64,000 nt of DNA from an uncultured Gammaproteobacteria bacterium (GTDB lineage Bacteria > Patescibacteriota > Patescibacteriia > UBA9934): positions 119,166-183,165 of the forward strand of contig CAYVLY010000002.1 of assembly GCA_964452565.1 (NCBI GenBank), given 5' to 3'. Made by a program: the position numbers and the translations under genes. Shown one piece after another: positions 11,770 to 28,413 of the stretch (position 1 is the stretch's first letter; each line of letters starts with the position of its first letter). Under the pieces are notes generated by a model. The model was not told the DNA's origin. It searched no databases and saw only the letters and a list, made by a program, of their open reading frames with translations.

Positions 11770-11797
11770 ACACCAACAAACGGAGAAGTACGAGATG

Positions 11798-12739
11798 AAT
11801 ACGATCCCCCTCTTTCAGGCCGGTGCTCATCGAGGCGGCCGCGAATACCGAAGAGCCCTGGTGCGTTCTGGTCAAGCTGATCGCATCGCCGACATCGTCA
11901 TCGCCGATCCCAAGCCCAACAGAGCCACCCGTGAGGCCGAAGAGTACTCCCGGATGGGGTTGAGGACCCTGGCGCTCCAGGAATCCTGCGAGTCTGCGGT
12001 CCGTCAGGTGGACGACGAGCGCCCCATCGTGGCGCTCGTTGACGAGGTCGCCCCCATGGCGCACCTCATCGAGCATCGAACGCGACAGCCCGTGCTCGTC
12101 CAAGGAGTCGGCCGCGGCCCCTCGCTCAACGGCAGCACATCGCCGGCCTTTGGTATGACCTTGGCCAGTTTCCCCGAGCGGGCACAAGAACGCGGGCCTG
12201 CGACGGAGCTGCTGCAGACGTTGGCCAGGCTTTCGCCGCCGGCGAGTTCGCAGGCGATCTCGCGAGATCCGCTCAACGCCATGCGCCTCCACCGAGTGCG
12301 CCGCAACACGAGCGAGGTCACCGCCCATCGCGTTCTGGAACTCGACCGCACACGGGAGCAGGACGATCTTCAGGCCCTGCTGTGGGGCGAGGGCACCTAT
12401 CCCCTGGTTCTGGCTCGCGGCCAAGGCCGTGACGCTCTGGAGGCCCAGAGCCAGGCGCTCGACCTCGTTCCCAGGCGCCCGCACGTGGCCGTGGCGATCT
12501 TCTCCCGCAACCCGGATCGAGTGGACATCTTCGTACTCGATCCCACCACGCGCAGAGATGGCCACTTCGTGCGGATGCACGTTCCGTTCCACGCGCCCGC
12601 CCCCGCTCCCCAACAGATGGGACGCCGGATCATCGACGTGAGCCCCTCCCCGGTGAGCTTGCCCGCCAGAAGGCCCAGGCCGCCCAGGGCCGGCACACCG
12701 GTGCCGAGGTCGGCCATCCGCGCGGCGTTCACCGACTGA
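11798..12739 (+). CDS. Hypothetical protein (313 aa)
   Basis: RBS GGAGA upstream of ATG 11798. Same strand and operon position as its neighbours. The competing minus-strand ORF 11753..12874 lacks operon context. Confidence 0.45.
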   Translation, partial: NTIPLFQAGAHRGGREYRRALVRSGQADRIADIVIADPKPNRATREAEEYSRMGLRTLALQESCESAVRQVDDERPIVALVDEVAPMAHLIEHRTRQPVLVQGVGRGPSLNGSTSPAFGMTLASFPERAQERGPATELLQTLARLSPPASSQAISRDPLNAMRLHRVRRNTSEVTAHRVLELDRTREQDDLQALLWGEGTYPLVLARGQGRDALEAQSQALDLVPRRPHVAVAIFSRNPDRVDIFVLDPTTRRDGHFVRMHVPFHAPAPAPQQMGRRIIDVSPSPVSLPARRPRPPRAGTPVPRSAIRAAFTD

Positions 12740-12749
12740 AGGAGAGTCC

Positions 12750-13232
12750 ATGAAGCGCATCCTGCCTCTGGCCATCATCGCCATCATCATCCTGACCGCG
12801 TTGGCTGGCCCGGTCGTTTCCGGCTTCCTGTTCATGGGAGCCATCCTGTGCTTCGCGGGCGCCGGGTGCATCATGATTGCCGGAGCAGAAGCACTGGCCG
12901 GGCGTCTGGCCGCCTACGCGGGAGGCTGTCTTTTCGCGGGGATTATCCTGCGGGCCGTCGCTGGGGCGAGCGCTCAGTTGAGTCCGAGCATCATGGTCGG
13001 GCTCCTGGCGCTCCTGGGCTTGGTCGTGCTTGCAGGAGCCTTGGTCCTCCTGTCCCGGATCATCGTGCAACGGCCGCCGGCGGGTCCTCGACCTCGGCCC
13101 ATGGCCAGACCACGGGCTCGCCTGGTCGAGCACATCGAATCCGATCCTACCGCGTGGGTGGGCACTCGACAGTCTGCTCGCACCGACGACGAGCTGGGCA
13201 TCCTCGGTGAGGGTGATGTTCGCCAGAGATGA
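12750..13232 (+). CDS. Small membrane protein with four TM helices
   Basis: RBS AAGGAG. Glycine/alanine-rich TM helices. Possible membrane partner of the downstream ATPase. Confidence 0.55.
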   Translation: MKRILPLAIIAIIILTALAGPVVSGFLFMGAILCFAGAGCIMIAGAEALAGRLAAYAGGCLFAGIILRAVAGASAQLSPSIMVGLLALLGLVVLAGALVLLSRIIVQRPPAGPRPRPMARPRARLVEHIESDPTAWVGTRQSARTDDELGILGEGDVRQR

Positions 13233-14700
13233 GCGACTACCTGTGGGGCAAGGGCAGCAGGACGTGCTCCCGCTGGCCGCCTCCACATTGGTCGAGGCCC
13301 ATTCGGCTCAAGTGGGTGGGACGGGATCTGGTAAGACCGGTTTCCTCATCGGCAGGGTCATGACCCTCCTCTCGTGCCTTCCCGGACGAGTCCACGTCTG
13401 CGTCCTGGATGGCAAAGGAGAGGCAGCCAGAGATCTACTCGGCACGTTCGCCCCAGCAATTGCCCACGAGAGCTGGGGGCTCAAGGCAGACCAGATTGGT
13501 GTCTGCTCGCCCTGGAAAGATGGCTGCCACGTCGGCCTGAACCTGCTCGCCCGACAGCCGGGGATGCCGGTCGATGTGCAAGCAAGCCAGGCCAGCAGAG
13601 CGATTCAGCGACTCGTAGGTGACAACTTCGGGCAGCGAATGGCCCCGATGATCATGATGGTTCTACGAGCCGTAATCGAGCTCAAGGGCTCGCTGCACGA
13701 CGTACTTCGTATCCTGGAAGACGACGAAATCGGCATCGCAGTAGGCCGACGAGTTCGAGACCCCGATGTCCGGCGCTATCTCATCGAAGTGCTTCCACGC
13801 GAGCCAGCGGCGACCAAGGCAGCTCTGCGGGCGCGTCTTGTGGGCCTCTTGGGTCTGCGGGCGATGCGCGCCATGCTCTGCTCCAGAGAGAGCATCACCG
13901 GAGTGGACTTCATCAATTCCCGGTTGAGCATCATCGACCTCGGAGGGGCGCCACCAGGCCATGCAGATCTGTCCATGTGGCTTGGTACTTGGATTTTCAA
14001 CATCATCACCTCTGCGATCTTGAACCGGCCAGACGAGCCCGGCAGACCACAGCTCTGTCTGTTCGTGGATGAGTTCCATCATCTGATCCACTCGCACGCT
14101 GACCTTGAGCAGCTCCTGACGATGGCCCGTTGGAAGGACACCAGCGTGCATCTGACGACTCAATCTCTGGCCCAGGTGCAGAACCAGCGGCTCATTCAAA
14201 CGGCCCTTGCTAATATTGGAATGTTCGTAGCGTTTCGCCCGCGGCCTGAAGACCTGCACCATTTTGGGCACCTCATTTCAGGCAGGGGTCACGTAGTGGA
14301 CCCCGAGCTTCCAGATCGGTTGCTGGAGCCTTCCAGGCAGACCCAGCTCTGGACCACCCGCCTTCGAGCACTGCCGCCTCGCTACGCTTGGCTTGTGGAT
14401 CTCTCACAAGGAGGGGAGAGCCACATCATCCGCAGCCTGGAGCTGCCATACCAGCGAGCCCGCCAGATCTCCGAACGCCTGTCAGCAGAACAGCGCCACG
14501 CCTTCTGGCGCGGCAAGTTCGGCAAGACCGTCGAGGAGCTCGAATCTGACGCTGCAACAGCTCTCAAGGGCATTCAGAAGCCAGGAGCAGGCCAACAGGG
14601 CGACATGCTCGATGGCCTCGGCAGCGGTGGATCCGGTCGGAGGGCCGGGCGTGGGAAGGGCAAGAAGAGCCCGACTTTCATGATGGAGCTACCAGAATGA
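13213..14700 (+). CDS. P-loop NTPase of the FtsK/TraD/VirD4-like coupling-protein type
   Basis: Walker A VGGTGSGKTGF and Walker B LCLFVDEFHH. Sits among Replic_Relax genes. Confidence 0.65.
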   Translation: MMFARDERLPVGQGQQDVLPLAASTLVEAHSAQVGGTGSGKTGFLIGRVMTLLSCLPGRVHVCVLDGKGEAARDLLGTFAPAIAHESWGLKADQIGVCSPWKDGCHVGLNLLARQPGMPVDVQASQASRAIQRLVGDNFGQRMAPMIMMVLRAVIELKGSLHDVLRILEDDEIGIAVGRRVRDPDVRRYLIEVLPREPAATKAALRARLVGLLGLRAMRAMLCSRESITGVDFINSRLSIIDLGGAPPGHADLSMWLGTWIFNIITSAILNRPDEPGRPQLCLFVDEFHHLIHSHADLEQLLTMARWKDTSVHLTTQSLAQVQNQRLIQTALANIGMFVAFRPRPEDLHHFGHLISGRGHVVDPELPDRLLEPSRQTQLWTTRLRALPPRYAWLVDLSQGGESHIIRSLELPYQRARQISERLSAEQRHAFWRGKFGKTVEELESDAATALKGIQKPGAGQQGDMLDGLGSGGSGRRAGRGKGKKSPTFMMELPE

Positions 14701-15044
14701 CCGCCGCACTCCTCAACGCTCTGGGGCAGGTCCAAGGGTCCTTGCTCATGCGCCTTGGACTGGCGCTGCTTGTGCTGCCTCTGCTGCCTGTGGCGGTAGT
14801 TGTCGATGGGCTGCGATCGCTCATCCGCGCGCAGGCGGAATCTCGGGTGCTCTCTGCTGGAACAGCTCTCTGCCCTGCTGGGCACCGGCTGTCGCTGCAG
14901 GGCGCATATGAGTGCGAGCAATGCCGGCTTCCCTTTGAGGGGCATGGCTTTGGAGAGTGCCCACACTGTCGGCACGTGGCCCACAGCCTCCGATGTCCAT
15001 GCGGCCGAGTGGTCGTCAATCCTCTGTGGAGCCCAGAGCCGTGA
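14697..15044 (+). CDS. Small protein with an N-terminal TM helix and a C-terminal Cys-rich zinc finger
   Basis: ATGA start/stop overlap with the ATPase gene. CEQC...CPHC...CPCG cysteine cluster. Confidence 0.45.
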   Translation: MTAALLNALGQVQGSLLMRLGLALLVLPLLPVAVVVDGLRSLIRAQAESRVLSAGTALCPAGHRLSLQGAYECEQCRLPFEGHGFGECPHCRHVAHSLRCPCGRVVVNPLWSPEP

Positions 15045-15100
15045 GCAAGCTGAAGTGCCCAGCTCGGACTCGGCCCCGCCCTCCTGGCGGAACCAGGGTG

Positions 15101-16006
15101 ATGCCCAGGGACAAGCTCATTCTGTTGCTCGTGGCCAGATGCGCCCCGGTGACCACCACCCAGGTCCGAACCTACCTGGAGTGCAGCACAGATGTTGCCC
15201 AGCGCCGCTGCCGGGTGCTTCGTGATCATGGGCTGCTCCAAGTGACGCTCGATCCCCGAGGGCTCCATCGGCCCAACCTGCTGACTCTCGGTCTGCCAGC
15301 CATGCCGGTGCTCGACCAGACCTTCGGCTTGAGCCCCGAGCAGTGCCGCCGCCCCAAGGCCATGCCGAGGAACCTGGATCATCACCTTGGAGTCGTGGAC
15401 CTCTACATCCAGTTGAAGGCCGCCACCACAAGATCGAAACGCATCGACCTCGCCGATTCGATGCTGGACTGGGAGCTGCGTCAAGGCCCTGGGGCCCGCC
15501 AGAGGCGGGTACAGGTGCCCGATCTGGTAGCTGTTCTTCAGAGCGACAGTGGGCGCATGGGGCTGGCCATCGAGGTGGACATGGCTACGCAGTCACCCGA
15601 CAGCGTGGTCAGGAACAAGGCCCTGCCATACGCCCAGGCCAGGCTGTCTGGCTCGACCCTCAAGGGCTGCCGCGACTGGGCAGTCCTGATGGTGAGTGCC
15701 AGCGTGCGCCGGCGCAACCGCCTGATGATCCGCCTGGGCCGGGAAGCGCTGCCGCTGGGATTGTTCTACTTCGCCGTCTCGGAGAACATCTCTGCCAGGA
15801 GCTTCCTCGGACGAACTACATGGCGGGCTCGCCACCTGGGCTCCGACGGAGTCGTGCGCTGGCCAGAGACCGACCCCTTTGCACCTATCAGGACGACCCG
15901 TCAGGTCCGTGCTGACGGGTTTCGTGCGCCGTCCAAGCCTTTGCAGGCCGCCAATGGCGCGCCCGCAAACTCCGATCTTGGTCCTCCCGGAGGACCACGG
16001 ACATGA
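15101..16006 (+). CDS. Replication-relaxation family protein (second paralog)
   Basis: LDHHLGVVDLYIQL and IEVDMAT motifs parallel the 3999..4862 product. N-terminal wHTH. Confidence 0.6.
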   Translation: MPRDKLILLLVARCAPVTTTQVRTYLECSTDVAQRRCRVLRDHGLLQVTLDPRGLHRPNLLTLGLPAMPVLDQTFGLSPEQCRRPKAMPRNLDHHLGVVDLYIQLKAATTRSKRIDLADSMLDWELRQGPGARQRRVQVPDLVAVLQSDSGRMGLAIEVDMATQSPDSVVRNKALPYAQARLSGSTLKGCRDWAVLMVSASVRRRNRLMIRLGREALPLGLFYFAVSENISARSFLGRTTWRARHLGSDGVVRWPETDPFAPIRTTRQVRADGFRAPSKPLQAANGAPANSDLGPPGGPRT

Positions 16007-16513
16007 CCTGCATCCCCAATCCGCTCTTTCTCCAGCTCATCGGTATCGAGAAGCCGATCTCCTCTTCCACTCCCCTCGACCTCGTTCCGCCCATGGACGA
16101 GGTTGCCCGCTGGGAAGAACACCAGGCGCAGCCTGTCTTCTGCCGCGGGACTGACCGGAACGGTGCCAACCACCACAACGCCAACTCTGTGGGGAGTATC
16201 TGGCGTTCAGGTGGCTGGCCGCTGTCGTGGTGCCTACTCCTGTCCCGCATGGCATCGGGCCATCCGACCATCGGGCCACGGGACTCCGGGACCTCGTTCG
16301 CGCCGGGTTCTTCCTGGCCGTCCAGAGCAGCGAGGGGCAGTGGAGGCTGGAGCCAGCTGGGTGGAAGCCATCCACTTGCAGACAATCACCATCTCGTAGC
16401 AGGAGGTGCTCTACATGAGGTAGTCAGGTGCCAAAGCGCATGGCAGTACGATCTGGCTGCGGTGAGGACCGGTAGGGGGCGGCCCCGCCTCATTCAACTA
16501 ATCCTCAATACCT

Positions 16514-16867
16514 ATGCCAAAGTCAAAGAAAAGGCGCCTCCCTCGCTGGGAAACCGATGTCGAGTGGTCCATGTGGGAGTTCAAGGTGTTCCGCCCGACG
16601 CCCTACGACGTCATCTGCGAGAATTACCTTATATATATGGTCAACGGTCAGCTTGGACCGATTCCGAAGGAACTGCTTCAGGTCCTCGGGAAGATCAGAC
16701 AGGCTCTCGAAAGTTCCCCTCGATTCGTGCAGACCGATTCAGAGGAAGACACCTGGGCCATCGTGGACTGGCTCAAGGACGACGATTCGTCCGAGTCCGA
16801 GGAGCCGACCACACAGGCCCGAAAACTCAAAGGGCATGTGCAGGATGGTCCTGCATCTTGCTCGTAA
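16514..16867 (+). CDS. Hypothetical protein (117 aa) with an acidic C-terminus
   Basis: Local GC drop and protein-like composition, unlike the surrounding Arg-rich spurious ORFs. Confidence 0.35.
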   Translation: MPKSKKRRLPRWETDVEWSMWEFKVFRPTPYDVICENYLIYMVNGQLGPIPKELLQVLGKIRQALESSPRFVQTDSEEDTWAIVDWLKDDDSSESEEPTTQARKLKGHVQDGPASCS

Positions 16868-16879
16868 CCTCAACACTCT

Positions 16880-17110
16880 ATGACAAGGATCACGCCAACC
16901 TGGGAGCAGTCCGTCGTGGCTGCTCTCCGAGATCTTGGTGGCGAAGCTCATCTCTCCGTCCTCAATCCAGAGGTCGCGAGGCTTCGCAAAGCCGCTGGGA
17001 TTCCACTACCGGCGACCTGGACGGCAACCATCAGGCGGACCTGCCAGCAGTCGAGTCAGATCGTCCAGGACGATCGAGGCTCCGGCGTCTGGCGACTCGT
17101 CACCAGGTAG
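16880..17110 (+). CDS. Small winged-helix protein (Mrr-N-like wHTH)
   Basis: 76 aa. The ...LPATWTATIRRTCQ...GSGVWRLVTR pattern resembles the N-terminal winged helix of Mrr-type restriction proteins. Confidence 0.4.
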   Translation: MTRITPTWEQSVVAALRDLGGEAHLSVLNPEVARLRKAAGIPLPATWTATIRRTCQQSSQIVQDDRGSGVWRLVTR

Positions 17111-17998
17111 TCAACCGGGCTGCCTGCTGCTTCGCACTTGATCGCCGCTGTACCACCAGCCTGCTTCGGGCCGCACCCGGCCGGTGTGGGGCCGTCCCAT
17201 TCCGGTTGAACCGCGCCAGATTCTGTCAGCCCAGGCAGCCACCCGCTGCTCCATGGGCTCTCCCTCCAGCTTTCCTGGCCCTGGCTCGTTGGCCAGGGTT
17301 CGCGCAGGCTGTTTCCCCTCACCGCGCCTGGAGCTCTCGCTCTGGGTGGCACGAGGCAACAGCTCCGTGACTGCCTACGGCGCTGCCAGGTTGCGCCTGC
17401 CCAGGCCTGCGGGCTCGCTGGGTTCGCCTTCTTGGTCGTGGCTGTGGGACCACCATGGGTCTTCTCCTCCTATCCAGGCTTCCCGCCTGGCAGGTACTGG
17501 GGGCTCTGTCTCCGTTGCGCTCTGCTCATCAGGGGCGCTTGGGGCTGCAGGAGAGGTGGGAGAGCTCTGGACGGCGAGGCAGCCAGGCCGTCATGGTCTT
17601 TCGTGCGTGAAGCCCCGTGGGTTGCTCTGCACCGGTCGGGTCGCGCGTCCTGTTCTCCACACCGTGGGAGGGATCGACAGGTGAGCAGTTCCCGCTACCT
17701 GCGCCGCATGTGGCGGGCGTCCCTTGGCCCGGCCTCCTTGCTGGCCTTGGATGAGTGCGTGGAAGCGCTTCCTGCTCCAGGTCCACAAGCAAAGACCTGG
17801 TTGGTGGAGACTGTGAGCCCCATCGGAGAGGTGGCGGGCGTCAAGGTCTGGCGCTGGGGTGAGGTGCTGGAGGCCATCGAGTCGAAGCGCAGGGGCGTTG
17901 GCGACAAGGAGCCTGCACACTGCGAGCCTGCGTATGCAGACCGCCCTCCGCGCGGGCATCATGTTGAAGAAGAATTGAGCGGTACTGGCACCGACTGG

Positions 17999-18406
17999 AT
18001 GACTGTGCGCCAAGCCGCAGAGCACTTCCAAGTCTCCGAACGACTGCTCCGCAAGCTGCTCTCCCAAGGGCGGCTTGACGAAGCCGTCGCTCGGGTAGGC
18101 CGAGCAGTGCGGCTCCATCGGGGCCGTCTTGTGACGGCACTCACTGGACAGGAGGATGCCCATGGCCTGGCTCCAAAAGAGCAAGAGGCTCAACCCGGAC
18201 ACGGGGAAGAAGGAAATCTACTACCGAATCTGTTGGAGAGTGAACGGCAAGAAGCGTACCCGCGGCATCGGGTTCTGCGGGGTGGTGGAGGCCAAGGAGC
18301 TTCTCAAAATCTTCGAGGGCAAGCAGGCCGTCGGCGAGGAGGTGGCTCCGCCGCCGAGTTCCGAGCCTACCTCCGCGGAGCCAGCACTGGTTCCGAAGCT
18401 GGCTGA
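17999..18406 (+). CDS. xis: Excisionase/MerR-like HTH protein (Xis). 3' extent uncertain.
   Basis: MTVRQAAEHFQVSERLLRKLLSQGRLDEAVARVGRAVRLHRGRL is a typical excisionase-family HTH directly upstream of int. The ORF continues about 250 nt into int in another frame. Confidence 0.4.
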   Translation: MTVRQAAEHFQVSERLLRKLLSQGRLDEAVARVGRAVRLHRGRLVTALTGQEDAHGLAPKEQEAQPGHGEEGNLLPNLLESERQEAYPRHRVLRGGGGQGASQNLRGQAGRRRGGGSAAEFRAYLRGASTGSEAG

Positions 18407-19367
18407 CTACCTGGATGACGTGTTCCTGCCTGTTGTGCAGCGCGACAAGGCGCCCAAGACCTACGCCGGAGCCTGCCGGGCAGCCAATGCGCTCAAGCCC
18501 ATCCTTGGCCAGTTGCAGCTCGACCAGATCAACTTCGCCGCCGCCGATGCCTATGTGACCGAGCGGAAGAAGCTTGGCCGGAGGTCGAGGACCATCATCC
18601 TGGAGCTGCGCTACCTGCGCCAAGCCCTGCAGCACGCCCACGCCTGCGAAGTCATCCGCCAGGTGCCGGAGCTGCCCAGGATTGCCGACCGTGACCGTAA
18701 GCCCCACAAGTTCCTCACCGAAGAGGAGTCTGAGCGCCTGTTGGATGCCCTACGCCCCCTGGACGAGCAGCCCCACCGGGTCACCCGTGGGAGGCCACCC
18801 ATCACCAGGGACCAGCTCACCTACCTGGTGGTGCTGATGGCTCTCAACGCCGGTCTACGCAAGAGCGAGATCCTGACCCGCGGCTGGGAGGATATCCACT
18901 GGCAGCAGGGGCCTCTGGGCACCATCATCATCAGCCACAAGCCCGAGGTGGGTTTCGTGGTGAAGAAGGGGCGCGAACGGGCCATCCCGCTCACACCGAA
19001 TCTGCGCCACGCCCTGGAAGACGCCCACGAGGCTGCCGGCAGGCCGTCATCGGGCTGGATCTTCCCCTCGCCGAGGATTCCTGGCCAGCCGCGAAAGAAC
19101 TTCGCCCAAGCCCTGGCTCGGGCCTGCAGGCGAGCAGGGCTGCCGCGCATCCATCCCCACGGCCTGCGCCACACCTGGGCCACCAGGCTTGCCATGCAGG
19201 GGGTAGACCGTCGGACGCTCATGGAGCTGGGCGGCTGGAAGGAGGGCCGGATGCTTGATGAGATCTACGCCCACACCACCGACGCTCACAAGGCCGAGGT
19301 CATGGCGCGCATGGGCATCGGCCGCCATGAGAAGAGCCCCGAGGGTGAGCCGGATGATGAGGAGTAG
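18156..19367 (+). CDS. int: Phage-type tyrosine integrase
   Basis: N-terminal arm-binding-type segment (AWLQKSKRLNPDTGKKEIYYRICWRVNGKKRTRG). C-terminal catalytic HGLRHTWATRL...LGGWKEGRMLDEIYAH (R..HxxR..Y). Confidence 0.9.
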   Translation: MPMAWLQKSKRLNPDTGKKEIYYRICWRVNGKKRTRGIGFCGVVEAKELLKIFEGKQAVGEEVAPPPSSEPTSAEPALVPKLADYLDDVFLPVVQRDKAPKTYAGACRAANALKPILGQLQLDQINFAAADAYVTERKKLGRRSRTIILELRYLRQALQHAHACEVIRQVPELPRIADRDRKPHKFLTEEESERLLDALRPLDEQPHRVTRGRPPITRDQLTYLVVLMALNAGLRKSEILTRGWEDIHWQQGPLGTIIISHKPEVGFVVKKGRERAIPLTPNLRHALEDAHEAAGRPSSGWIFPSPRIPGQPRKNFAQALARACRRAGLPRIHPHGLRHTWATRLAMQGVDRRTLMELGGWKEGRMLDEIYAHTTDAHKAEVMARMGIGRHEKSPEGEPDDEE

Positions 19368-19735
19368 GTGCCACCCAGCTGCCACCCACGGCCAGCCTTC
19401 AAGGGCTCTCTGGGAGCAGATTTCTCTGGGTGCCACCCAGAACTGCCACCCAGCAGCCTCAATCGCTCCTTCAACGAAAAGACCCACTCTGCGGTTTGCA
19501 AAGTGGGTCGTTCTTTTTCGTCGAGTCGGGGTGGGCGGATTCGAACCGCCGACTTCCTGCTCCCAAATGATCGAATCGGGGAGGTATATCCTGTGTTTTC
19601 AAGGGGTTACAGTGCACCAGGATGCACGGTTTTGCACGGAAATGCACCTGGTTGCCACCCAGTGCCACCCAGCAGATGGGAGGATGATGGTGCGATATGG
19701 AGTCGGTGGTTCTGGGTGGCAGGGTGCCACCCAGT
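19368..19735. promoter_or_regulatory. attP-like region: eight copies of TGCCACCCAG (one inverted) in two clusters flanking a tRNA 3'-end-like core
   Basis: Copies start near 19369, 19380, 19431, 19444, 19653, 19663 and 19726, with the inverted copy at 19712. Layout is that of arm-type integrase-binding sites on both sides of a core. Confidence 0.5.
19525..19553 (-). other. tRNA 3'-end fragment (T-arm GGCGG-TTCGAAT-CCGCC plus acceptor 3' strand), candidate attachment core. Not a complete tRNA.
   Basis: Reverse complement reads GGCGGTTCGAATCCGCCCACCCCGAC. No matching 5' half. Differs from the tRNA-Val 3' end at 36061. Confidence 0.5.
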
Positions 19736-19858
19736 GTATCTACAAAATGGTACTCCTTTGCGCCAATGGGCAGCCGATGGATGTCAAGATTCTGTCAAGT
19801 CGGCATGGCAGCCTCCATGGATGTCCAATCCCGTAGATCGGCATGCGAGCCTACGAGC

Positions 19859-20770
19859 ATGAAGAACATCCACGCCATTCTCGAACAGCTTCTCACGCTC
19901 GCTCCCTTCCCTCTGACCGCAGCAGACATCAGGGAAGGGCTTGCCGACCTGCAGCTCGCACTGGCCGGTCTTGCCGTTGAGGTGCTGGAGGCAGAACGAA
20001 AAGAGCTCCCACTCCGCGAGGCTGCAGAGCTGGAGCGATTTCCCCGAATGCGGCTCGTTCATCTCGCCATCTTCGATCTACTCCGTTTTGAACTCCCCAA
20101 GGAGTATAGAGAAGTGCTGCGTGAGGTCAGCGCCGACAGTCAGGAGGAACCTCTCTTCGTACGCGACATCAAGCTCGCGCTGGTGAACTGCGCCCGGGAG
20201 TCGGACAACCCGGCAGAGCGCGCTGTCAGCCGTTTCTTTCTGTTTGAGATTATTCGCCTTGGCATGGTGATTGTCGCCTGGCTGGCGGGAGGCATTGAAG
20301 CCGTAGGCGGAGACCAGCAAGACATCGACGAGTTGGCGGAATCCGAGGTGGATGAGTGGTTGAGCAGGCCTCTTCTTCCTGGCCCGATCAGAACCTTCGA
20401 CGTGATCTTTGCTGGTGCCTTGCTACGCCTCAATGGCCGCGCTGATGTGCTTGCCGAGATGATGAATGAGCTCTCCGATGAAGCTCGCAGGGCTCAACTC
20501 TTCCGAGCTGCAGTGGAGGCCAAGCTGCGTGAGATGCCCGCAGCAGAGGCCGTGCTGATCCGCAACATGGTAGCCCCAGCGCTCGACGGGCAGCACGTGA
20601 CAGTCGAACGCTTGGCAGGCCTGCACCCCATGGCGCTCGGTCAACACAAGACAGAGGCGCTCTATAAGAAGCAACAAAGGGCGTTTTTGAAGCTTCGGCA
20701 GGGCCAGGATGTGAAGAGGAGCAATCCAGCCCTCTTTGACATGATTCGTGAAATGACCAAGGAAGGATAG
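19859..20770 (+). CDS. Hypothetical all-alpha protein (303 aa)
   Basis: First gene after the att repeats. ATG 19859 chosen because the upstream part of ORF 19697 overlaps the repeat array. Weak Rx4H (RLAGLH) near the C-terminus. Confidence 0.5.
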   Translation: MKNIHAILEQLLTLAPFPLTAADIREGLADLQLALAGLAVEVLEAERKELPLREAAELERFPRMRLVHLAIFDLLRFELPKEYREVLREVSADSQEEPLFVRDIKLALVNCARESDNPAERAVSRFFLFEIIRLGMVIVAWLAGGIEAVGGDQQDIDELAESEVDEWLSRPLLPGPIRTFDVIFAGALLRLNGRADVLAEMMNELSDEARRAQLFRAAVEAKLREMPAAEAVLIRNMVAPALDGQHVTVERLAGLHPMALGQHKTEALYKKQQRAFLKLRQGQDVKRSNPALFDMIREMTKEG

Positions 20771-20781
20771 CAGAACATCCC

Positions 20782-21213
20782 ATGACTTATGCGATCGCTA
20801 CATATGACTGGCAAAACGTGCTTGATGCGCTTGACGGACACGAACCAGGCTCCATCCTCCGCCTATCCAAGCGCTCCGTACCACATCCGCTCGACCAGGG
20901 GGCCAGAGAATCTGTAGGGCTGCCTCAAGGCCAGTCGGCTGACTACCGCTGGGAGCTTGAGAGTGGAGAGAGCCTGCATGTCAGGGATTTCGGCACGCAT
21001 TATGAAGCCCACATTGACCTCGTTGACCCTGCGGTCGATCTGCTGGCTCATCTGGCGAACGATGCCCCTGGAACAATGATCACGGGTAGTGCGGCTGGTG
21101 GCGCGTTGATCGGGACGGCAGTGGCTCGCACTGCGGCTGGCGCGCTTGTCGGAGGACTTGTTGGTGGGCTCGTAGGAGCTCTGGGAGTCGCTCTGCTCAC
21201 CCAGGATGACTAA
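20782..21213 (+). CDS. Hypothetical protein with a C-terminal glycine-zipper transmembrane segment
   Basis: C-terminus GSAAGGALIGTAVARTAAGALVGGLVGGLVGALGVALL (GxxxG repeats). Confidence 0.45.
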   Translation: MTYAIATYDWQNVLDALDGHEPGSILRLSKRSVPHPLDQGARESVGLPQGQSADYRWELESGESLHVRDFGTHYEAHIDLVDPAVDLLAHLANDAPGTMITGSAAGGALIGTAVARTAAGALVGGLVGGLVGALGVALLTQDD

Positions 21214-21484
21214 AACCAGAAAAGGAACACATGGAGGAGAGAAAATGCGCCGCAAACGCATTCATCGATCACGAATTCCCGAAAAAACTGCCGGCCGCGT
21301 CTACAGTGGCGCAGAGTGGGCCGCAGCTCGACGCGGGCACAGGAACCGTACTCGGTACTCGGGAATTGGAGGACTGGTTGGAGGAATTCTGGGCTCCTTC
21401 GGGGGTCTCTGGGGAGCTGCGGCAGGAGCTGCAATTGGAGCTGGTATCGGAGCGGCTATCGGTGACGAAGTTGACAGTGGTTGA
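21206..21484 (+). CDS. Small basic protein with a glycine-zipper (2TM-like) C-terminus
   Basis: Arg/Lys-rich N-terminus, then GIGGLVGGILGSFGGLWGAAAGAAIGAGIGAAIG. Confidence 0.4.
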   Translation: MTKTRKGTHGGEKMRRKRIHRSRIPEKTAGRVYSGAEWAAARRGHRNRTRYSGIGGLVGGILGSFGGLWGAAAGAAIGAGIGAAIGDEVDSG

Positions 21485-21760
21485 AAGTCATTATCCTTCC
21501 GGGACCGATGACAAAGGACGTGTAGAGCTTCCCCAGCACTCACACTAATTAAACCGATCCCTTGATCCTCCGAGGAGGCTCACCCTTCTTCTTTATTTCA
21601 CAGGGTGTATTTTACAACCGAAATATTCTCGTGCTCTTGAGATAACCAGAGGGGGAAAGAGAGCCATTTACATGTGGTGTATTAGGCGGCGATGCCTTTA
21701 CTTATTCCACGGTCTCGGCTACGGTGCGAGGTAGAGAATCCTCCCATAGGAGCACTTTCT

Positions 21761-23758
21761 ATGCCGAATCAGATTCGAACTCTGCCAGACGGCAAGATAT
21801 GCGATTTCATTGATGGAACTATCCGTAACGACACGCCGGAGGAATACGTTAGGCAGAATATTGAGAAACGCCTCGTCTTGGAGCTTGGGTATTCACTTGG
21901 CCAGATAGCTGTCGAATTTCCTATTCGCATCGGTAGCCGACGGGCACGGATTGACCTTGCCGTATTCCCGGAAGATGCCGCTCACACACAAGACAACGTG
22001 CATGTCATTGTTGAGTGCAAGCGAGAGTCAGTAGAGCCCACCGATCACAAGAACGGCGTTGAGCAACTCAAGTCCTACATGTCGGCTTGCCCCAACGCTG
22101 CTTGGGGGATGTGGACAAATGGCCGATACAAAGATGTGATTCGAAAGACCGTCTCTGACGGCAGCATCGAGTGGGAATCCCCGAATGATATCCCCGCCAA
22201 GGATGGGGATACAGACCGGTTGGACATGCCGTCCCGTGAAGATCTCACTAACGCAACGGACGACAACCTTCTCTTCTCTTTCAAGACATGTCACAATCAC
22301 ATCTATGTTACCGACGGGCTCCAGAAGCAACCCGCCTTCTTTGAGCTTTTAAAGGTGATCTTCTGTAAGATCCACGACGAGCGAAACGTACCTCATGCCC
22401 TTGAGTTCTACGCAACGGCCGCCGAAAAGGCGAGCAATGATGGTCGGCTGACAGTGGCGCGACGCATCGGCAGAATCTTCGATCGAGTGAAGGCGCGATA
22501 CCCAGCCATCTTTGACGGTGGAGACACAATTGCACTGGAACCACGGTCACTTGCCTATGTAGTTGGCGAGCTACACAAGTACAGCTTCCTGACTACAAAC
22601 ATCGACGTGAAAGGCAAGGCGTATGAAGAGTTAGTCGGTGCGAACTTGCGTGGAGACCGCGGAGAATTCTTCACGCCGCGCAATGTGCAGCGCATGGTTA
22701 TCGAAATGCTTGATGTACAGGTCGATGAGCGTGTTCTTGATCCCGCGTGTGGTACAGGTGGTTTCCTTGTCATTGCAATGAAATTGATAATCGATCAACT
22801 TCGAGAAAAGGCAGGATTCTATGCAGATGAGATGGTCAATCCGGCTGTCTTGCACGCCGTCGACCTGCGCGTGCGAGAGCTTGCAAGGTCTTGTTTCTTT
22901 GGTTTCGACATAAACCCCGACCTCGTCAAGGCGACCAAGATGAACATGGTCATGAACAACGATGGGTCGGGTAACATCTTCAGAGAAAACAGTTTATTGC
23001 ATCCACACCAGTGGTCTGACGGTTTCAAACAGGAACTCGCAGACGCGCTCGGGAAAAAGCCTCTTTCTCTGCGTGGGCCAGGCCACCTTGGTTATTTTGA
23101 CGTCATCGCTACGAATCCCCCTTTTGGCGCCAGACTGCCCATCAAGGACCGCGAAACATTGAGTCAATACGATCTTGGCTATGTGTGGACCGAGACGAAA
23201 ACCGGTTGGCAGAAAACACGCAAACTCCAGTCGTCCATGCCGCCTGAAGTTCTCTTTATCGAACGATGCTGGCAGTTTCTCAAACCTGGCGGCCGAATGG
23301 GCATCGTTTTGCCAGATTCCATTCTGGGCGCGCCTGGACAGCGTTTTGTTCGAGAGTGGATACTTCGCCACTGTCGGCTGATTGCCTCGGTCGATCTTCA
23401 TCCAGATACTTTTCAGCCACGCAACAGCACACACACGTCAGTTCTTGTGCTACAGCGAAAGACTGAAGATGAAATCCGTCGAGAGGAGAAACAAGGGCAG
23501 CTCAACGACTACTCGATCTTCATGGCTCAAGCGAAGGCGATTGGTCACGATAGACGAGGAAAGACTATTTATCGTCGAAATGAAGATGGGGAGATTGTGC
23601 TGGTGCCGCCCCCAGGTTCGGTTTCTACGTTGGAACGTACAGCGGACGGTTCTCCAGTCAGCCGTCCTCTACCAAGGCAGAAAATCAAGGACGATGATTG
23701 TCCTTTCATCTCTCAAGAGTTTCGTACCTGGAAGAAGACGGAGGTACTTGGCTGGTGA
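21761..23758 (+). CDS. N6-adenine DNA methyltransferase (HsdM/Type IIG-like) fused to an N-terminal HsdR-N/PD-(D/E)xK nuclease-like domain
   Basis: RBS AGGAG 9 nt upstream of ATG 21761. N-terminal YVRQNIEKRLV...IDLAVF...VIVECKR (restriction-endonuclease-fold core). FFTPRNVQRMV..LDPACGTGGFL (motif I). NPPFG (motif IV). Confidence 0.8.
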   Translation: MPNQIRTLPDGKICDFIDGTIRNDTPEEYVRQNIEKRLVLELGYSLGQIAVEFPIRIGSRRARIDLAVFPEDAAHTQDNVHVIVECKRESVEPTDHKNGVEQLKSYMSACPNAAWGMWTNGRYKDVIRKTVSDGSIEWESPNDIPAKDGDTDRLDMPSREDLTNATDDNLLFSFKTCHNHIYVTDGLQKQPAFFELLKVIFCKIHDERNVPHALEFYATAAEKASNDGRLTVARRIGRIFDRVKARYPAIFDGGDTIALEPRSLAYVVGELHKYSFLTTNIDVKGKAYEELVGANLRGDRGEFFTPRNVQRMVIEMLDVQVDERVLDPACGTGGFLVIAMKLIIDQLREKAGFYADEMVNPAVLHAVDLRVRELARSCFFGFDINPDLVKATKMNMVMNNDGSGNIFRENSLLHPHQWSDGFKQELADALGKKPLSLRGPGHLGYFDVIATNPPFGARLPIKDRETLSQYDLGYVWTETKTGWQKTRKLQSSMPPEVLFIERCWQFLKPGGRMGIVLPDSILGAPGQRFVREWILRHCRLIASVDLHPDTFQPRNSTHTSVLVLQRKTEDEIRREEKQGQLNDYSIFMAQAKAIGHDRRGKTIYRRNEDGEIVLVPPPGSVSTLERTADGSPVSRPLPRQKIKDDDCPFISQEFRTWKKTEVLGW

Positions 23759-25479
23759 GACCTCAATTTGCCCCAAACACGTCGGAGATTCCAGCAAGGC
23801 CCCGTAGGGACTCTATTGCCACAACGGTTTCACTCAAAGAAGTCGTCACCCAAGGAACACGGTTTGACGCTTCAGCGTACGACATAGAATCACGCAATAC
23901 GCTCACAACGATTGAGTCGTGTGGGCTATGTGTCCTGCCGTTGTTCGGCTCGAAAGGCCTCTGCAAGGAAGCACACAATGCCTTCCGCTTCAGGCGAGTT
24001 TTTGCTTCAGAACAAGGGCTACCGTTCCTGACCAGCGCTGACATCATCAAGATGCGACTGGACTATCGTCGTCATTTGAGTCGATCGCAGACTCCACGAG
24101 TGCGAGAGCTTCTTCTTCAGAAGTGGGATGTCTTAATTTCTTGTTCGGGAACCATTGGAAACGTCGCGCTGGCGGGTCCGGCGGTCGAAGGGTTTGCAGC
24201 GTCACAAGATATCATTCGGCTTCGTGCGACAAATAGTGACATTGCAGGTTACGTTGCGGCTTTCCTGCGTTCTCGCTATGGGAGAGGACTGATTGCGAAT
24301 GCGACCTATGGATCGGTAATAACGCACATTGAACCAGATCACCTATCCAGGATTCCCATCCCTGTACCACGTCCACACCTCATGAACGTCGTTGGCACGC
24401 AGATGAGAGAAGCCGTGCTACTGCGTGAACGAGCAAATCGGCTTCTCGATGACGCGGAAGCCGCCCTGTACGATGTTCTCGGCTTCGAGAGGCTTGATAC
24501 CCGGCACATGCGATCTACCACCATTCGCGCTCGGGAGCTCAATGGCCGCTTCGATGCCAGATACCACGAGCCAGTTGCTATTGCTGCTCTGCGGGATTTG
24601 GAGACATGCCGTTATCCGATATCGACAATTGGCGATGGCGCTGTATGTACTGAGATCCGGCAGGTCACGAGGTTTCGTAAGCGCGTATATGTTGAACGAG
24701 GTGGAATTCCTCTCCTAACAACGCGGCAGCTATTCCAGTACGACCCAGTCAAGATAAGTCACCTTGCAAAAGGCGCGCACGAAAAAGACCTCAAAGAAAT
24801 CGCGCTTGCGCCGAACATGGTAACTGTGAACTGCTCTGGTCGACTCGGCCGAGTGCAGGCAGGCACGCTCGGGCGTGTGCAGATTATCCCCAGATATATG
24901 TCGGAGTGGACTACTTCTCAACATGCACTGCGGCTTGTCGCTGCGCCTGACCTCAACGCAGGCTATCTCTATGCCTGGCTTGCCTCGGCCCACGGCCTTC
25001 GTGTCATTACGCGCCATGCATATGGCTCCGTAGTCGTTCACATTAACCGTCACATGATGGCCGAGGTTCCAATACCTCTCCCAACAAGGGAGAAGCGCAA
25101 CATGATTGGCGATCTTGTACTTCTGGCAAACCGACTGCGCGATGAAGCCTGGCGAAGGGAGCAAACTGCTATCCGGCAAGTTGAGGCTCTCATAGCCCTC
25201 CCCCCAGCTGAACATGATCCGATGGGATTTCGGATGGCTCAACTGGAGGCGGAGGCGAGTGGCGTTTATGCGCAGATAGAAAGTTCGTCTGACGAGCAAG
25301 AGGCATCCCGTCTACGCAGGAGACTTCGGCATCTACAACAAGAGCAGTCGGACCTGATGCAACAGGTCTTCTCCAGCCAGTTCTCACTTCCCCCAGAAGT
25401 TGGAGAGGATGTTATCGCCCTTGCTGACCGAGTACTGCGGGAGTATCGTGCTACTACCACCACGGCTTCAACCAAGTGA
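23698..25479 (+). CDS. hsdS: Type I restriction-modification specificity subunit (HsdS) with two target-recognition domains
   Basis: Duplicated TRD architecture with conserved SGTIGN/NCSGRLGRV-type segments and a central coiled-coil spacer. Alternative GTG start at 23755 overlaps the methyltransferase stop (GTGA). Confidence 0.75.
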   Translation: MSFHLSRVSYLEEDGGTWLVRPQFAPNTSEIPARPRRDSIATTVSLKEVVTQGTRFDASAYDIESRNTLTTIESCGLCVLPLFGSKGLCKEAHNAFRFRRVFASEQGLPFLTSADIIKMRLDYRRHLSRSQTPRVRELLLQKWDVLISCSGTIGNVALAGPAVEGFAASQDIIRLRATNSDIAGYVAAFLRSRYGRGLIANATYGSVITHIEPDHLSRIPIPVPRPHLMNVVGTQMREAVLLRERANRLLDDAEAALYDVLGFERLDTRHMRSTTIRARELNGRFDARYHEPVAIAALRDLETCRYPISTIGDGAVCTEIRQVTRFRKRVYVERGGIPLLTTRQLFQYDPVKISHLAKGAHEKDLKEIALAPNMVTVNCSGRLGRVQAGTLGRVQIIPRYMSEWTTSQHALRLVAAPDLNAGYLYAWLASAHGLRVITRHAYGSVVVHINRHMMAEVPIPLPTREKRNMIGDLVLLANRLRDEAWRREQTAIRQVEALIALPPAEHDPMGFRMAQLEAEASGVYAQIESSSDEQEASRLRRRLRHLQQEQSDLMQQVFSSQFSLPPEVGEDVIALADRVLREYRATTTTASTK

Positions 25480-26209
25480 TGTACCTCTTGAGCGCCGACA
25501 CTCACCCCGCCCACTTCGAGGAGAGTATGGGTATAGAGGGTATCGACCATGTATACGCTGGGATTTTGGTTTCACCTGCGCGATATGCCTTCTCCACGAA
25601 GCAGACTTCGTTGCTATTGGAATAGAGGGTACGGGGCTAACATCTATTGAGCATATTGAGGCGAGGAGTCACGACCAAGACCTCGTCAATGAATATTCCA
25701 ATCTTCTATATGCCTGTCGTTTCTGCAATACTGCACGGTCAAACCGTGGAAGATCTGCTCTGGATGGAGCGCAACTTCTGGACCCTACAGAAGCGGCCTG
25801 GGAGAACCACTTTTACATAGCTGCAGACGAACTTCGCCCGAAGCATGGAGATCACTCGGCGCAATACACGGCTGACTGCTACGATATTAAAGAACCGCGT
25901 AAAACAACTCTGCGCCGGCTCCGAAGGGAGCACGTCCAGTACTCACAGCGAGTGCTTGAAGCCGCGCCAGGACGTATTGCAGAGCTTAATAACGCCTTGG
26001 CAGACGATTCGATTTCGCCCTCATCTTCGCTCTACCTTCTCCTGAAGAACACGCTGGACGATTTGAAGGTCGAGTATGAGCGCATCATGACAGAGATTCT
26101 TCGCTACTGCGCAATACCGCTTGATGCGGACGACATCTGCCGTTGCGAGGGCGAGGGCAATCGAGCATTGCCGCCATTTATCGCGAGTCAAGTTTGGCAG
26201 ATAGGTTGA
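25400..26209 (+). CDS. HNH endonuclease-domain protein
   Basis: CAICLLHEADF...IEHIEARSH...NLLYACRFCNTAR, i.e. a CxxC...H...N...CxxC HNH motif. Start overlaps hsdS by about 80 nt, and no in-frame start lies downstream of the hsdS stop. Confidence 0.55.
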   Translation: MERMLSPLLTEYCGSIVLLPPRLQPSDVPLERRHSPRPLRGEYGYRGYRPCIRWDFGFTCAICLLHEADFVAIGIEGTGLTSIEHIEARSHDQDLVNEYSNLLYACRFCNTARSNRGRSALDGAQLLDPTEAAWENHFYIAADELRPKHGDHSAQYTADCYDIKEPRKTTLRRLRREHVQYSQRVLEAAPGRIAELNNALADDSISPSSSLYLLLKNTLDDLKVEYERIMTEILRYCAIPLDADDICRCEGEGNRALPPFIASQVWQIG

Positions 26210-26269
26210 GCTTCATGCACGTCGGTGGCGTGGGTGCCCCCATAAGAGAAAACACCCAACAGAAAGTAG

Positions 26270-27406: not shown

Positions 27407-27623
27407 CTGTACCTTCTTGACGATTCACACATGAACAGCACCAAGCACTGAACGGAAGAGAACCTCGAGAAATAGACTCTATTGCCGAAGGGCCTCACCA
27501 CCTGTTTGGGCCGTGCTTGCGGATCGGGTGAAGAGATATCCTTCGGACATTTTTTCTGCAGCTGTCGAGTTTCATACCCCCCTGCACAGAAGCAGCTCGC
27601 CCTCAACGCGGGCTGCTACCCCC

Positions 27624-28325: not shown

Positions 28326-28413
28326 TTCGTACCTCTGCACAAGGGAACGCTCTTTATTAAGCACGAATCACGAGTGAGTGCAAGTGAATTTCTAACACCA
28401 GACTCCTCTGGTT

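What the first reader, a model, noticed from the sequence alone, without database searches (positions are those of the whole stretch)
17999..19735. xis-int module followed by an attP-like site: arm-type TGCCACCCAG repeats on both sides of a tRNA 3' fragment
Downstream of int there are eight copies of TGCCACCCAG, one of them inverted, in two clusters: 19368..19453 and 19652..19735. Between them lies a 29-nt tRNA T-arm/acceptor fragment (RC GGCGGTTCGAATCCGCCCACCCCGAC) that is not tRNA-Val. Arm sites flanking a core on both sides is the architecture of an unrecombined attP, not an attL or attR. This suggests the element is carried as cargo (nested or tandem) rather than integrated through this site, or was captured in its circular configuration. 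The repeats could alternatively be replication iterons. The xis ORF runs about 250 nt into int in another frame, which is unusual and may hide a frameshift.
Basis: partly seen in the sequence, partly recalled or inferred. Interest (0 to 1): 0.6.

Follow-up and report, generated by a model that had tools for sequence, protein, structure and literature searches.

The report
Unused attP site in foreign island
This is a complete but unused attachment site (attP), with its integrase and excisionase genes, from a mobilizable element that normally inserts into a proline tRNA gene; here it rides as a passenger inside a larger foreign island in the genome of a tiny "candidate phyla radiation" bacterium.

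Summary
Downstream of a tyrosine integrase gene (18162-19367), TGCCACCCAG occurs 7 times exactly, plus 2 one-mismatch copies. The copies form two clusters on either side of a 43-nt block (19525-19567, minus strand). That block is identical to the 3' half of a tRNA-Pro(UGG) gene, from the anticodon loop to the discriminator base.

Ten relatives of the integrase carry the same paired 10-mers (TGCnnnnCAG) beside a tRNA. Some relatives have an intact tRNA-Pro there (integrated); others have only the fragment. The predicted integrase has the N-terminal fold expected for an arm-binding domain.

I read this as an intact attP, about 368 bp long. It belongs to an integrative mobilizable element with a coupling-protein-like ATPase, a Replic_Relax relaxase, Xis and Int. 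The element is not integrated through this site. It lies inside a foreign island of at least 38.7 kb (52-65% GC). That island abuts tRNA-Val in a 44% GC Patescibacteria (Uhrbacteria-like) chromosome. A large serine recombinase gene sits at the island's far left end.

The iteron reading is rejected. The 244-nt run of xis into int is not a sequencing error, because it is conserved in all 14 relatives. This is a new member of a known kind, in an unusual host.

The parts
17999..18406 (+). xis (recombination directionality factor). The HTH_17 domain is at about 17999-18130. A C-terminal tail is encoded in the +2 frame of int (18162-18406).
   Evidence: Pfam HTH_17 1.8e-05. The ORF stays open to +224..+247 nt past the int ATG in 14/14 relatives.
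18162..19367 (+). int, a 401-aa tyrosine integrase (an alternative ATG lies at 18156). Predicted layout: N-terminal three-strand-plus-helix domain (aa 1-57), linker (58-78), core-binding domain, catalytic domain.
   Evidence: Pfam PF00589 7e-30. The exact protein is P0001. AlphaFold model has mean pLDDT 87.6. Foldseek matches Tn1549 and lambda integrases. R233, K268, H333, R336, W359 and Y369 are invariant.
19369..19453 (+). P arm. Arm-type sites at 19369-19378, 19380-19389 (1 mismatch), 19431-19440 and 19444-19453, plus an inverted one-mismatch partner at 19426-19435.
   Evidence: The proximal doublet with a 3-nt spacer is conserved in L003 and in 8 further relatives.
19481..19519 (.). Bidirectional terminator hairpin between the P arm and the core. 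It would terminate int, and also the rebuilt tRNA after integration.
   Evidence: 12-pair stem with T runs on both strands. Hairpins sit at the same position in L003, L011 and L012.
19525..19567 (-). attP core: the 3' half of tRNA-Pro(UGG), from anticodon loop TTTGGGA to discriminator A plus one base.
   Evidence: Identical to the intact tRNA-Pro(UGG) of L012. Unique in the window. No full tRNA.
19613..19648 (+). Four TGCAC(C/G) motifs at exact 10-bp spacing (19613, 19623, 19633, 19643), in phase with the next two arm sites. Candidate Xis binding array.
   Evidence: Similar GCAC(G/C)G arrays lie on the anticodon side of the core in L005, L006, L008 and L015. The function is inferred.
19653..19734 (+). 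P' arm. Arm-type sites at 19653-19662, 19663-19672, 19712-19721 (inverted) and 19725-19734.
13243..17370 (+). Mobilization module of the same element: a 485-aa P-loop ATPase with weak coupling-protein matches (13243-14700), a 115-aa protein (14697-15044), a Replic_Relax relaxase-type protein (15041-16006) and a 455-aa protein (16003-17370).
   Evidence: Pfam. The same gene order lies upstream of int in L003, L005, L006, L008 and L011. PF13814 is listed as a MobC-type relaxase domain in PMC5357655.
17342..17351 (-). Isolated ninth copy of the arm 10-mer, about 650 nt upstream of xis. Either chance or a regulatory Int site.
   Evidence: Not found at the equivalent place in L003.
1..36060 (.). 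Foreign island (52-65% GC) that carries the element. It continues at least 2671 nt left of the window to a large serine recombinase gene, and ends on the right at tRNA-Val (36061-36137, minus strand).
   Evidence: GC profile. Logan contigs SRR8146441_8679 and _9369. Serine recombinase domains. Host identity.

Best explanation
Positions 19368-19735 are an intact attP of a lambda-type (heterobivalent) tyrosine integrase.

Proposed mechanism. The N-terminal domain of Int binds the TGCCACCCAG arm sites on both sides of the core. Its core-binding and catalytic domains act on the 43-nt core, which copies the 3' half of tRNA-Pro(UGG). Recombination with a matching tRNA-Pro gene would rebuild the tRNA next to int, with the element's own terminator behind it. 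Xis (HTH_17) would direct excision, probably by binding the phased TGCAC array on the anticodon side of the core.

The element. The module belongs to an integrative mobilizable element made of a coupling-protein-like ATPase, a Replic_Relax relaxase, Xis, Int and attP. Its relatives live in high-GC bacteria.

Its state here. In this genome the site has not recombined. The element is a passenger within a composite foreign island of at least 38.7 kb in a Patescibacteria chromosome. The island was most likely inserted by a different recombinase, and the large serine recombinase at its left end is the best candidate.

Shown: the anatomy of the site, its family-wide conservation, both recombination states in relatives, the contiguity with host DNA and the foreign composition.
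Inferred: which protein binds which site, the crossover position, and which recombinase inserted the island.
For: - Arm 10-mer: 8 exact copies against 0.13 expected, 7 of them within 368 bp around the core.
- Core: identical to the tRNA-Pro(UGG) 3' half of L012.
- Arm doublet: a TGCnnnnCAG doublet with a 2-3 nt spacer lies beside the tRNA 3' end in the window, L003, L004, L005, L006, L011, L012, L015, L016 and L017. There are none in 845 kb of unrelated loci.
- Integrated relatives: L011 and L012 show int, the arm doublet, a hairpin and then an intact tRNA-Pro (attL type); in L011 no arms follow the tRNA.
- Unrecombined relatives: L005 has its own arm motif on both sides of a tRNA-Thr 3' half. 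L008 has a repeated 9-mer on both sides of its core fragment.
- Int structure: predicted N-terminal three-strand-plus-helix domain with pLDDT above 93, matches to lambda and Tn1549 integrases, and invariant catalytic residues.
- Assembly: Logan contig _9369 starts at window 19525 and runs uninterrupted to about 47294, through tRNA-Val into UvrA and SecG. Contig _8679 ends at 19554.
- Composition and host: host genes are 44% GC and Uhrbacteria-like.
- Other recombinase: a serine recombinase lies at the island's left end.
- One element or two: L005 carries homologues of both the Int module and the second Replic_Relax module. This fits both modules belonging to one circle that is opened near the serine recombinase.
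Against: - No read-level data were available.
- The island's left junction with host DNA was not reached. The contig ends 189 nt beyond the serine recombinase gene, so insertion by that enzyme is unproven and no empty site was found.
- The genes right of attP (19697-21484) have no homologues in the relatives. Their membership of the same element rests on the shared arm motif alone.
- In L006 and L015 the P-side arm motif was not seen on the P' side. Some fragment-only sites in the family may therefore be accretion junctions.
- The host's own tRNA-Pro was not seen.
Confidence: 0.7

Rival explanations
1. The site is an accretion junction, a hybrid internal att site. Two related elements integrated one after the other into the same tRNA-Pro gene in an earlier host. 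That left int(A)-P(A)-core-P'(B) between them. The array, or part of it, was later moved into this genome.
For: - Tandem arrangement occurs in this family. L015 (int plus fragment) and L016 (int, then an intact tRNA-Pro(CGG) with the same 3' half) lie 97 kb apart in the same orientation on one Myxococcota chromosome.
- Tandem AICEs leave a 44-bp att site between them (PMC2440964).
- Accretion is common among IMEs (PMC5357655).
- The genes right of the site have no homologues in relatives.
Against: - There is no second core copy, no tRNA-Pro and no second integrase of this family anywhere in the window or in the 2.7 kb to its left.
- The same exact 10-mer is used on both sides.
- The phased TGCAC array runs straight into the P' arm sites.
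Confidence: 0.17
2. The site is an assembly artefact. Reads from a free circular copy, or from another organism's integrated copy, were joined to this chromosome through the 43-nt tRNA-like repeat.
For: Two Logan contigs break exactly here with a 30-nt (k-1) overlap at 19525-19554. This implies a branch in the k=31 assembly graph at the left edge of the core. The position fits another sequence in the sample, such as a tRNA-Pro gene ending ...CCGACCA.
Against: - A 43-nt repeat is shorter than a read and shorter than the large k values assemblers use.
- The P' side carries the same arm motif as the P side, independently of any assembly.
- The right-hand contig runs unbroken from the core into host genes in SRR8146441. 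A second run's contig (SRR8146440_15089) also carries host genes on the tRNA-Val side; that it spans tRNA-Val into the island's right part is inferred from coordinates, not read.
Confidence: 0.08
3. The 10-mers are replication iterons, or binding sites for the relaxase or another plasmid protein.
For: They are short repeats in clusters on an element that encodes Replic_Relax proteins.
Against: - The clusters flank a tRNA 3' half directly after int, not a rep gene or an AT-rich stretch.
- One copy is inverted.
- In integrated relatives the doublet stays between int and the intact tRNA.
- The motif changes between relatives while the relaxase-module proteins remain recognisably homologous.
Confidence: 0.03

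Closest known systems
Phage lambda Int/Xis/attP and other heterobivalent tyrosine integrases (Tn916/Tn1549 Int, mycobacteriophage L5 Int)
   Same: - Arm-type sites lie on both sides of a core, and the total site size is a few hundred bp.
- The integrase has a predicted N-terminal three-strand-plus-helix domain, a core-binding domain and a catalytic domain.
- A small winged-helix excisionase gene lies just upstream of int.
- The phased TGCAC motifs next to the core resemble the tandem Xis sites of lambda and L5 (that comparison is from my own knowledge).
   Different: - Sequence identity to any integrase in the phage or plasmid collections is below 30%.
- The core is a tRNA 3' half.
- xis overlaps int by about 240 nt in a conserved way.
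[quoted passage not shown]
   Same: It is a small element with xis-int-attP at one end. It targets the 3' end of a tRNA gene, and pSAM2 also uses tRNA-Pro. The tRNA is restored after integration, and tandem insertions are known (PMC2440964).
   Different: - No RepSA, RepAM, Kor, Pif or Spd genes were found.
- The ATPase gives only weak coupling-protein matches and no match to solved structures.
- The relatives are in Myxococcota-labelled and other high-GC metagenome genomes, not actinomycetes.
Integrative and mobilizable elements (IMEs) with a relaxase plus coupling protein, as catalogued in streptococci (PMC5357655)
   Same: A recombination module is joined to a small mobilization module, with no mating-pore genes. 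PF13814 (Replic_Relax) is listed there as a MobC-type relaxase domain. Accretion with other elements, including ones that encode serine integrases, is described there.
   Different: The host range and protein families differ. Mobilization is not shown here.
Multi-integrase ICEs such as the tripartite ICEs of Mesorhizobium (PMC5882170)
   Same: One element carries several integrase/att systems, so an attP for one integrase can sit inside the chromosome while another system holds the element in place.
   Different: There is no evidence here of coordinated, multi-step assembly. The second recombinase is a serine recombinase, and its sites are undefined.

Membership tests
Heterobivalent (lambda-type) tyrosine integrase with attP | Tyrosine recombinase catalytic domain with the conserved R-K-H-R-H/W-Y residues | tested here: met
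   PF00589 at 7e-30. R233, K268, H333, R336, W359 and Y369 are invariant in 37 sequences.
Heterobivalent (lambda-type) tyrosine integrase with attP | Separate N-terminal arm-binding domain | tested here: met
   AlphaFold predicts strands 3-10, 17-27 and 30-37 plus helix 41-57 at pLDDT above 93, followed by a low-confidence linker. Full-length lambda Int chains are matched. No Pfam arm-binding family is hit, and binding is not shown.
Heterobivalent (lambda-type) tyrosine integrase with attP | Repeated arm-type sites on both sides of the core | tested here: met
   Four or five sites lie at 19369-19453 and four at 19653-19734. The doublet is conserved across the family.
Heterobivalent (lambda-type) tyrosine integrase with attP | Core identical to a chromosomal attB | tested here: met
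   The 43 nt are identical to the tRNA-Pro(UGG) 3' half in L012. Related integrases sit next to intact tRNA-Pro genes.
Heterobivalent (lambda-type) tyrosine integrase with attP | Recombination activity and crossover position | not testable with these tools
   This needs in vivo or in vitro recombination assays.
Actinomycete ICE (AICE, pSAM2-like) | Int, Xis and attP targeting a tRNA gene | tested here: met
Actinomycete ICE (AICE, pSAM2-like) | FtsK/SpoIIIE-type Tra protein and a RepSA/RepAM-type replication protein | tested here: inconclusive
   The ATPase gives only weak TrwB/TraG-D_C matches (E about 0.005), and its L003 homologue gives weak FtsK/DUF87 matches. It has no match to solved structures. 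Replic_Relax is present in place of RepSA/RepAM.
Actinomycete ICE (AICE, pSAM2-like) | Actinomycete host, and Kor/Pif/Spd functions | tested here: not met
   The host is Patescibacteria. The relatives are labelled Myxococcota and other phyla. No such domains were found.
Integrative mobilizable element (IME) | Own integration/excision module plus a relaxase (with or without a coupling protein), and no mating-pore genes | tested here: met
   Int and Xis. Replic_Relax at 2.8e-12, called a MobC-type relaxase domain in PMC5357655. No T4SS genes were found in the island. Mobilization itself is untested.
Replication iterons | Tandem direct repeats beside a rep gene and an AT-rich unwinding region | tested here: not met
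   The repeats flank a tRNA fragment after int. One is inverted. The region is 60-63% GC.
Tandem accretion junction | A further core copy or the target tRNA bounding the neighbouring element | tested here: not met
   There is only one core copy and no tRNA-Pro in the 64 kb plus 2.7 kb examined. DNA outside that range was not seen.

The most novel reading that the evidence does not exclude
An apparently intact, transfer-competent mobilizable element lies inside a recently acquired island in a Patescibacteria (Uhrbacteria-like) chromosome. It comes from a lineage found in high-GC bacteria (Myxococcota-labelled and similar), and its tRNA-Pro attP is unused. This would be a rare direct trace of gene flow from another phylum into a candidate-phyla-radiation episymbiont. 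The tRNA-Pro core and the integrase relatives could then point to the donor, possibly the symbiont's own host organism. In addition, the family's excisionase gene overprints the first ~80 codons of int. That would be a conserved dual-coding arrangement which gene callers systematically miss.
Probability: 0.2. Interest if true: 0.7.

Novelty: new member of a known kind. Interest (0 to 1): 0.42.

Why it matters
- It gives a worked example of a complete arm-core-arm attP for an uncharacterised integrase family. No member of the phage or plasmid collections is more than 30% identical. The arm consensus (paired TGCnnnnCAG next to the tRNA 3' end) can be used to find and orient such elements in metagenomes.
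- It shows that an element can reside in a genome with its own attP unused, inside a composite island that carries several recombinases. That matters for island-boundary prediction.
- It places such an element, with defence-system cargo, in a Patescibacteria genome, where mobile elements are little described.
- It shows that this family's excisionase gene is invisible to standard gene callers because it overlaps int by about 240 nt.

Tried and rejected
- Exact look-up of the 403-aa Int found nothing, because the recorded gene starts at the second ATG and is 401 aa.
- Empty-site search. I tried to reach a closely related genome without the island through exact look-ups of UvrA, RluD, cytidylate kinase, the pilin-like protein and the leftmost island gene. 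Only the two Logan runs came back. The island's left junction and an empty site were therefore not obtained.
- The metagenome and viral scans for paired TGCCACCCA returned mostly unrelated hits. None encoded a relative of any island protein.
- Rfam at a permissive threshold found only the T-arm at the core and nothing credible at the left contig end.
- Xis (135 aa) found no protein in the 5.8-billion-sequence collection. This is consistent with the gene never being called, but it is no independent support.
- Synonymous-site constraint in the overlap was only modest: 0.62 against 0.54.
- A 9-nt complement of the anticodon region in the P arm (19411-19419) is within chance expectation.
- I considered a prophage and rejected it, because no structural or packaging genes were found.
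Full report
**1. What is in the sequence**

A 401-aa tyrosine integrase runs from 18162 to 19367 (PF00589, 7e-30). An HTH_17 excisionase-type ORF starts at 17999.

Exact TGCCACCCAG occurs 8 times in the window against 0.13 expected. Seven copies lie within 19369-19734. With one mismatch allowed there are also 19380 and an inverted partner at 19426.

It is part of a 43-nt block, 19525-19567 on the minus strand. That block reads TTTGGGA-GCAGG-AAGTC-GGCGG-TTCGAAT-CCGCC-CACCCCG-A-C. In tRNA terms this is the anticodon loop (anticodon UGG), 3' anticodon stem, variable loop, T arm, 3' acceptor strand and discriminator base. It is identical to the 3' half of an intact tRNA-Pro(UGG) gene in locus L012. 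Identity stops at the 5' edge of the anticodon loop. ARAGORN and Rfam find no complete tRNA or other RNA family there.

A 12-pair hairpin with T runs on both strands (19481-19519) separates the int-side repeats from the core. On the other side, four TGCAC(C/G) motifs sit at 19613, 19623, 19633 and 19643, exactly 10 bp apart. They run in phase into the arm sites at 19653 and 19663.

**2. Evidence from relatives**

The integrase has 86 relatives at E below 1e-20, all from metagenomes. The few that are named are mostly Myxococcota. Nothing in the plasmid or phage collections exceeds 30% identity.

A scan of species-representative genomes gave 14 loci at 47-63% identity, all 60-72% GC. They fall into these groups:

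| Loci | What follows int | State |
|---|---|---|
| L011, L012, L016, L017 | an intact tRNA-Pro gene beside the arm doublet | integrated |
| L006, L008, L015 | only a tRNA-Pro 3' fragment ending at the anticodon loop | fragment only |
| L005 | a tRNA-Thr(CGU) 3' half, with its own repeat (TGCAAGACAG) on both sides | unrecombined |

L003 (77% identical Int) has the same TGCCACCCA(G/C) sites as the window.

A pattern search then showed a doublet TGCnnnnCAG-(2-3 nt)-TGCnnnnCAG beside the tRNA 3' end in the window and nine relatives. There were none in 845 kb of unrelated loci. The motif varies between relatives (CCACC, CAGA, AAGA, TAGA, TTCA and others), but its position is kept. In L011 the doublet lies between int and the intact tRNA, and no copy follows the tRNA. 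That is the expected attL pattern.

GCAC(G/C)G arrays on the anticodon side of the core recur in L005, L006, L008 and L015, even though their arm motifs differ. This points to a more conserved binding protein, and I infer that it is Xis.

**3. The integrase**

An AlphaFold model built from 37 sequences (mean pLDDT 87.6) gives three strands plus a helix at residues 1-57 with pLDDT above 93. A poorly predicted linker (58-78) follows, then a helical core-binding domain and the catalytic domain. Foldseek matches Tn1549 integrase and full-length lambda integrase. The catalytic residues are invariant.

This is the domain layout needed to bridge arm and core sites. Actual binding is inferred, not shown.

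**4. The xis/int overlap**

In the window and 13 relatives the xis frame (+2 relative to int) is open from the HTH domain to between +224 and +247 nt past the int ATG. The first stop falls at eight different positions within that 24-nt span. Elsewhere in int the same frame has 0.0106 stops per codon. The other alternative frame stops at scattered positions.

The last part of the Xis tail (G-x-A-A-x-F/Y-R-A-x-L) is more conserved (0.41 pairwise identity) than the Int linker encoded by the same bases (0.29). Synonymous third-base identity in int is slightly higher in the overlap, 0.62 against 0.54.

The overlap is therefore a family feature and not a sequencing error, and the tail is probably translated. 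No gene caller records this protein. The one record that contains it is a fusion caused by a frame change (P0070).

**5. Where the element sits**

The right 28 kb of the window are 42-47% GC. They encode UvrA, RNase J, ribosomal protein L19, SecG and RNase P RNA. UvrA is 78-84% identical to Patescibacteria and Candidatus Uhrbacteria proteins.

Positions 1-36060 are 52-65% GC and end at tRNA-Val (36061-36137, minus strand).

Upstream of xis-int lies a conserved module: a 485-aa ATPase with weak coupling-protein matches, a 115-aa protein and a Replic_Relax protein. The same module is found upstream of int in L003, L005, L006, L008 and L011. PF13814 is treated as a MobC-type relaxase domain in PMC5357655. 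There are no mating-pore or phage structural genes. The element therefore looks like an integrative mobilizable element.

A second, distant Replic_Relax module lies at 2425-6824 (26% identity between the two proteins). It has homologues to the right of the attP in L005. This suggests that both modules belong to one circular element.

Independent per-run assemblies help here:
- Logan contig SRR8146441_8679 ends at window 19554 and extends 2671 nt left of the window. There it encodes a 510-aa large serine recombinase, 189 nt from the contig end.
- Contig SRR8146441_9369 starts at window 19525 and runs unbroken to about 47294, through tRNA-Val into host genes.

The two contigs overlap by exactly 30 nt, which is k-1. 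The graph therefore branches at the left edge of the core. That is what another sequence ending ...CCGACCA (a true tRNA-Pro gene) in the sample would produce. This part is inference.

The link from the core rightwards to the host is solid. The same arm motif on both sides argues that the link leftwards is real too.

**6. Interpretation**

The site is an intact attP that has not recombined. No second core copy, no tRNA-Pro gene and no second integrase of this family lies within the 66.7 kb seen. The element is therefore not integrated through this site, and it is not visibly part of a tandem array at tRNA-Pro.

The most economical model is a composite island, or a single element with two recombination systems, inserted by another enzyme. 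The serine recombinase at the left end is the best candidate. I give that specific step about 0.4.

An accretion junction inherited from a previous host remains possible. L015 and L016 show such an arrangement in a Myxococcota chromosome, and AICEs and IMEs do the same.

Iterons are rejected on position, orientation and the behaviour of the motif in integrated relatives.

**7. Novelty**

The architecture is textbook (lambda, L5, pSAM2), so the site itself is a new member of a known kind. Three aspects are less ordinary:
- the uncharacterised integrase family with a definable arm consensus;
- the conserved ~240-nt xis/int overlap;
- the location in a Patescibacteria genome within an island of clearly foreign composition that also carries defence genes.

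Noticed in passing
window 881-902, 28414-28435, 30076-30097, 35915-35936: A perfect 22-nt palindrome, GGTGTTTCAGGCCTGAAACACC, occurs three times exactly and once with 2 mismatches, only inside the island (0 expected). One copy lies inside the coding sequence of the XerC-like recombinase gene (29567-30532, minus strand), where it encodes GVSGLKH. The last copy is 125 nt from tRNA-Val. It was not found in any related locus. These could be recombination or regulator sites.
   Followed up: partly
2671 nt left of the window (L083 190-1722, minus strand): A large serine recombinase (Resolvase + Recombinase + Zn_ribbon; best NCBIfam matches XisF and Ccr types) lies at the far left of the island. It is followed by a terminator and a 20-nt match to the tRNA-Val T arm in inverted orientation (L083 about 100-120). 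The Logan contig ends 189 nt beyond the gene.
   Followed up: partly
window 35735-35755 and 35870-35905: A further family-type doublet, TGCAGCCCAT-a-TGCAGCCCAA, lies about 305 nt from the 3' end of tRNA-Val, in the orientation the family uses. A T-arm-like piece (GGGTTCGATTCCCCC, plus strand) and a hairpin (36000-36025) lie between. This may be the decayed attL of a related element once integrated at tRNA-Val. No such doublet occurs in 845 kb of unrelated loci.
   Followed up: partly
window 21761-26209: The island's cargo includes a methyltransferase that matches the methylation-associated defence system protein MAD2 (NCBIfam 1.4e-191, just under the cut-off). A specificity-subunit-like protein and an HNH protein follow it.
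   Followed up: no
window 36000-64000: The host part is Patescibacteria (Uhrbacteria-like) at 42-47% GC. The island is 52-65% GC and mosaic. RNase P RNA lies at 52979-53399.
   Followed up: partly
window 19525-19554; Logan contigs SRR8146441_8679 and _9369: Two contigs of an independent k=31 assembly meet here with an exact 30-nt overlap. The break is at the base where the element (…GACT) and a tRNA gene with an encoded CCA (…GACC) would diverge.
   Followed up: partly
L137 (2013-2233 and 62-125), L098 (1-260): Unrelated metagenome contigs carry paired (A/T)TGCCACCCA(A/G) sites next to a tRNA gene (tRNA-Ser by my reading; no tRNA finder was run on these loci). In L137 a ~2-kb segment lies between direct repeats of that tRNA's 3' end. 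No relative of the window's integrase was detected there.
   Followed up: no
L015 and L016 (OZ245034.1, 6.68-6.80 Mb): Two integrases of the family lie 97 kb apart in one Myxococcota-labelled chromosome. The first is followed by a tRNA-Pro(CGG) 3' fragment. The second is followed, 5 kb on, by the intact tRNA-Pro(CGG). This looks like tandem accretion at one tRNA gene.
   Followed up: partly
P0070 (545 aa, ENA contig of 3962 nt): One relative is recorded as a single HTH_17-integrase fusion. It reads the xis frame through the overlap and switches into the int frame near Int residue 46, so it lacks the N-terminal strands. This is either a natural variant or an indel error.
   Followed up: no
window 31736-33145 (minus strand): An ORF gives only weak Mutator-family transposase matches. 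It is probably a transposase remnant inside the island.
   Followed up: no
L008 (JACQSK010000021.1, 197.6-kb contig labelled Candidatus Uhrbacteria): A second genome labelled Uhrbacteria carries an integrase of this family with a fragment-only att site, but the 21 kb seen are 72% GC. This is either another foreign island or a binning error.
   Followed up: no
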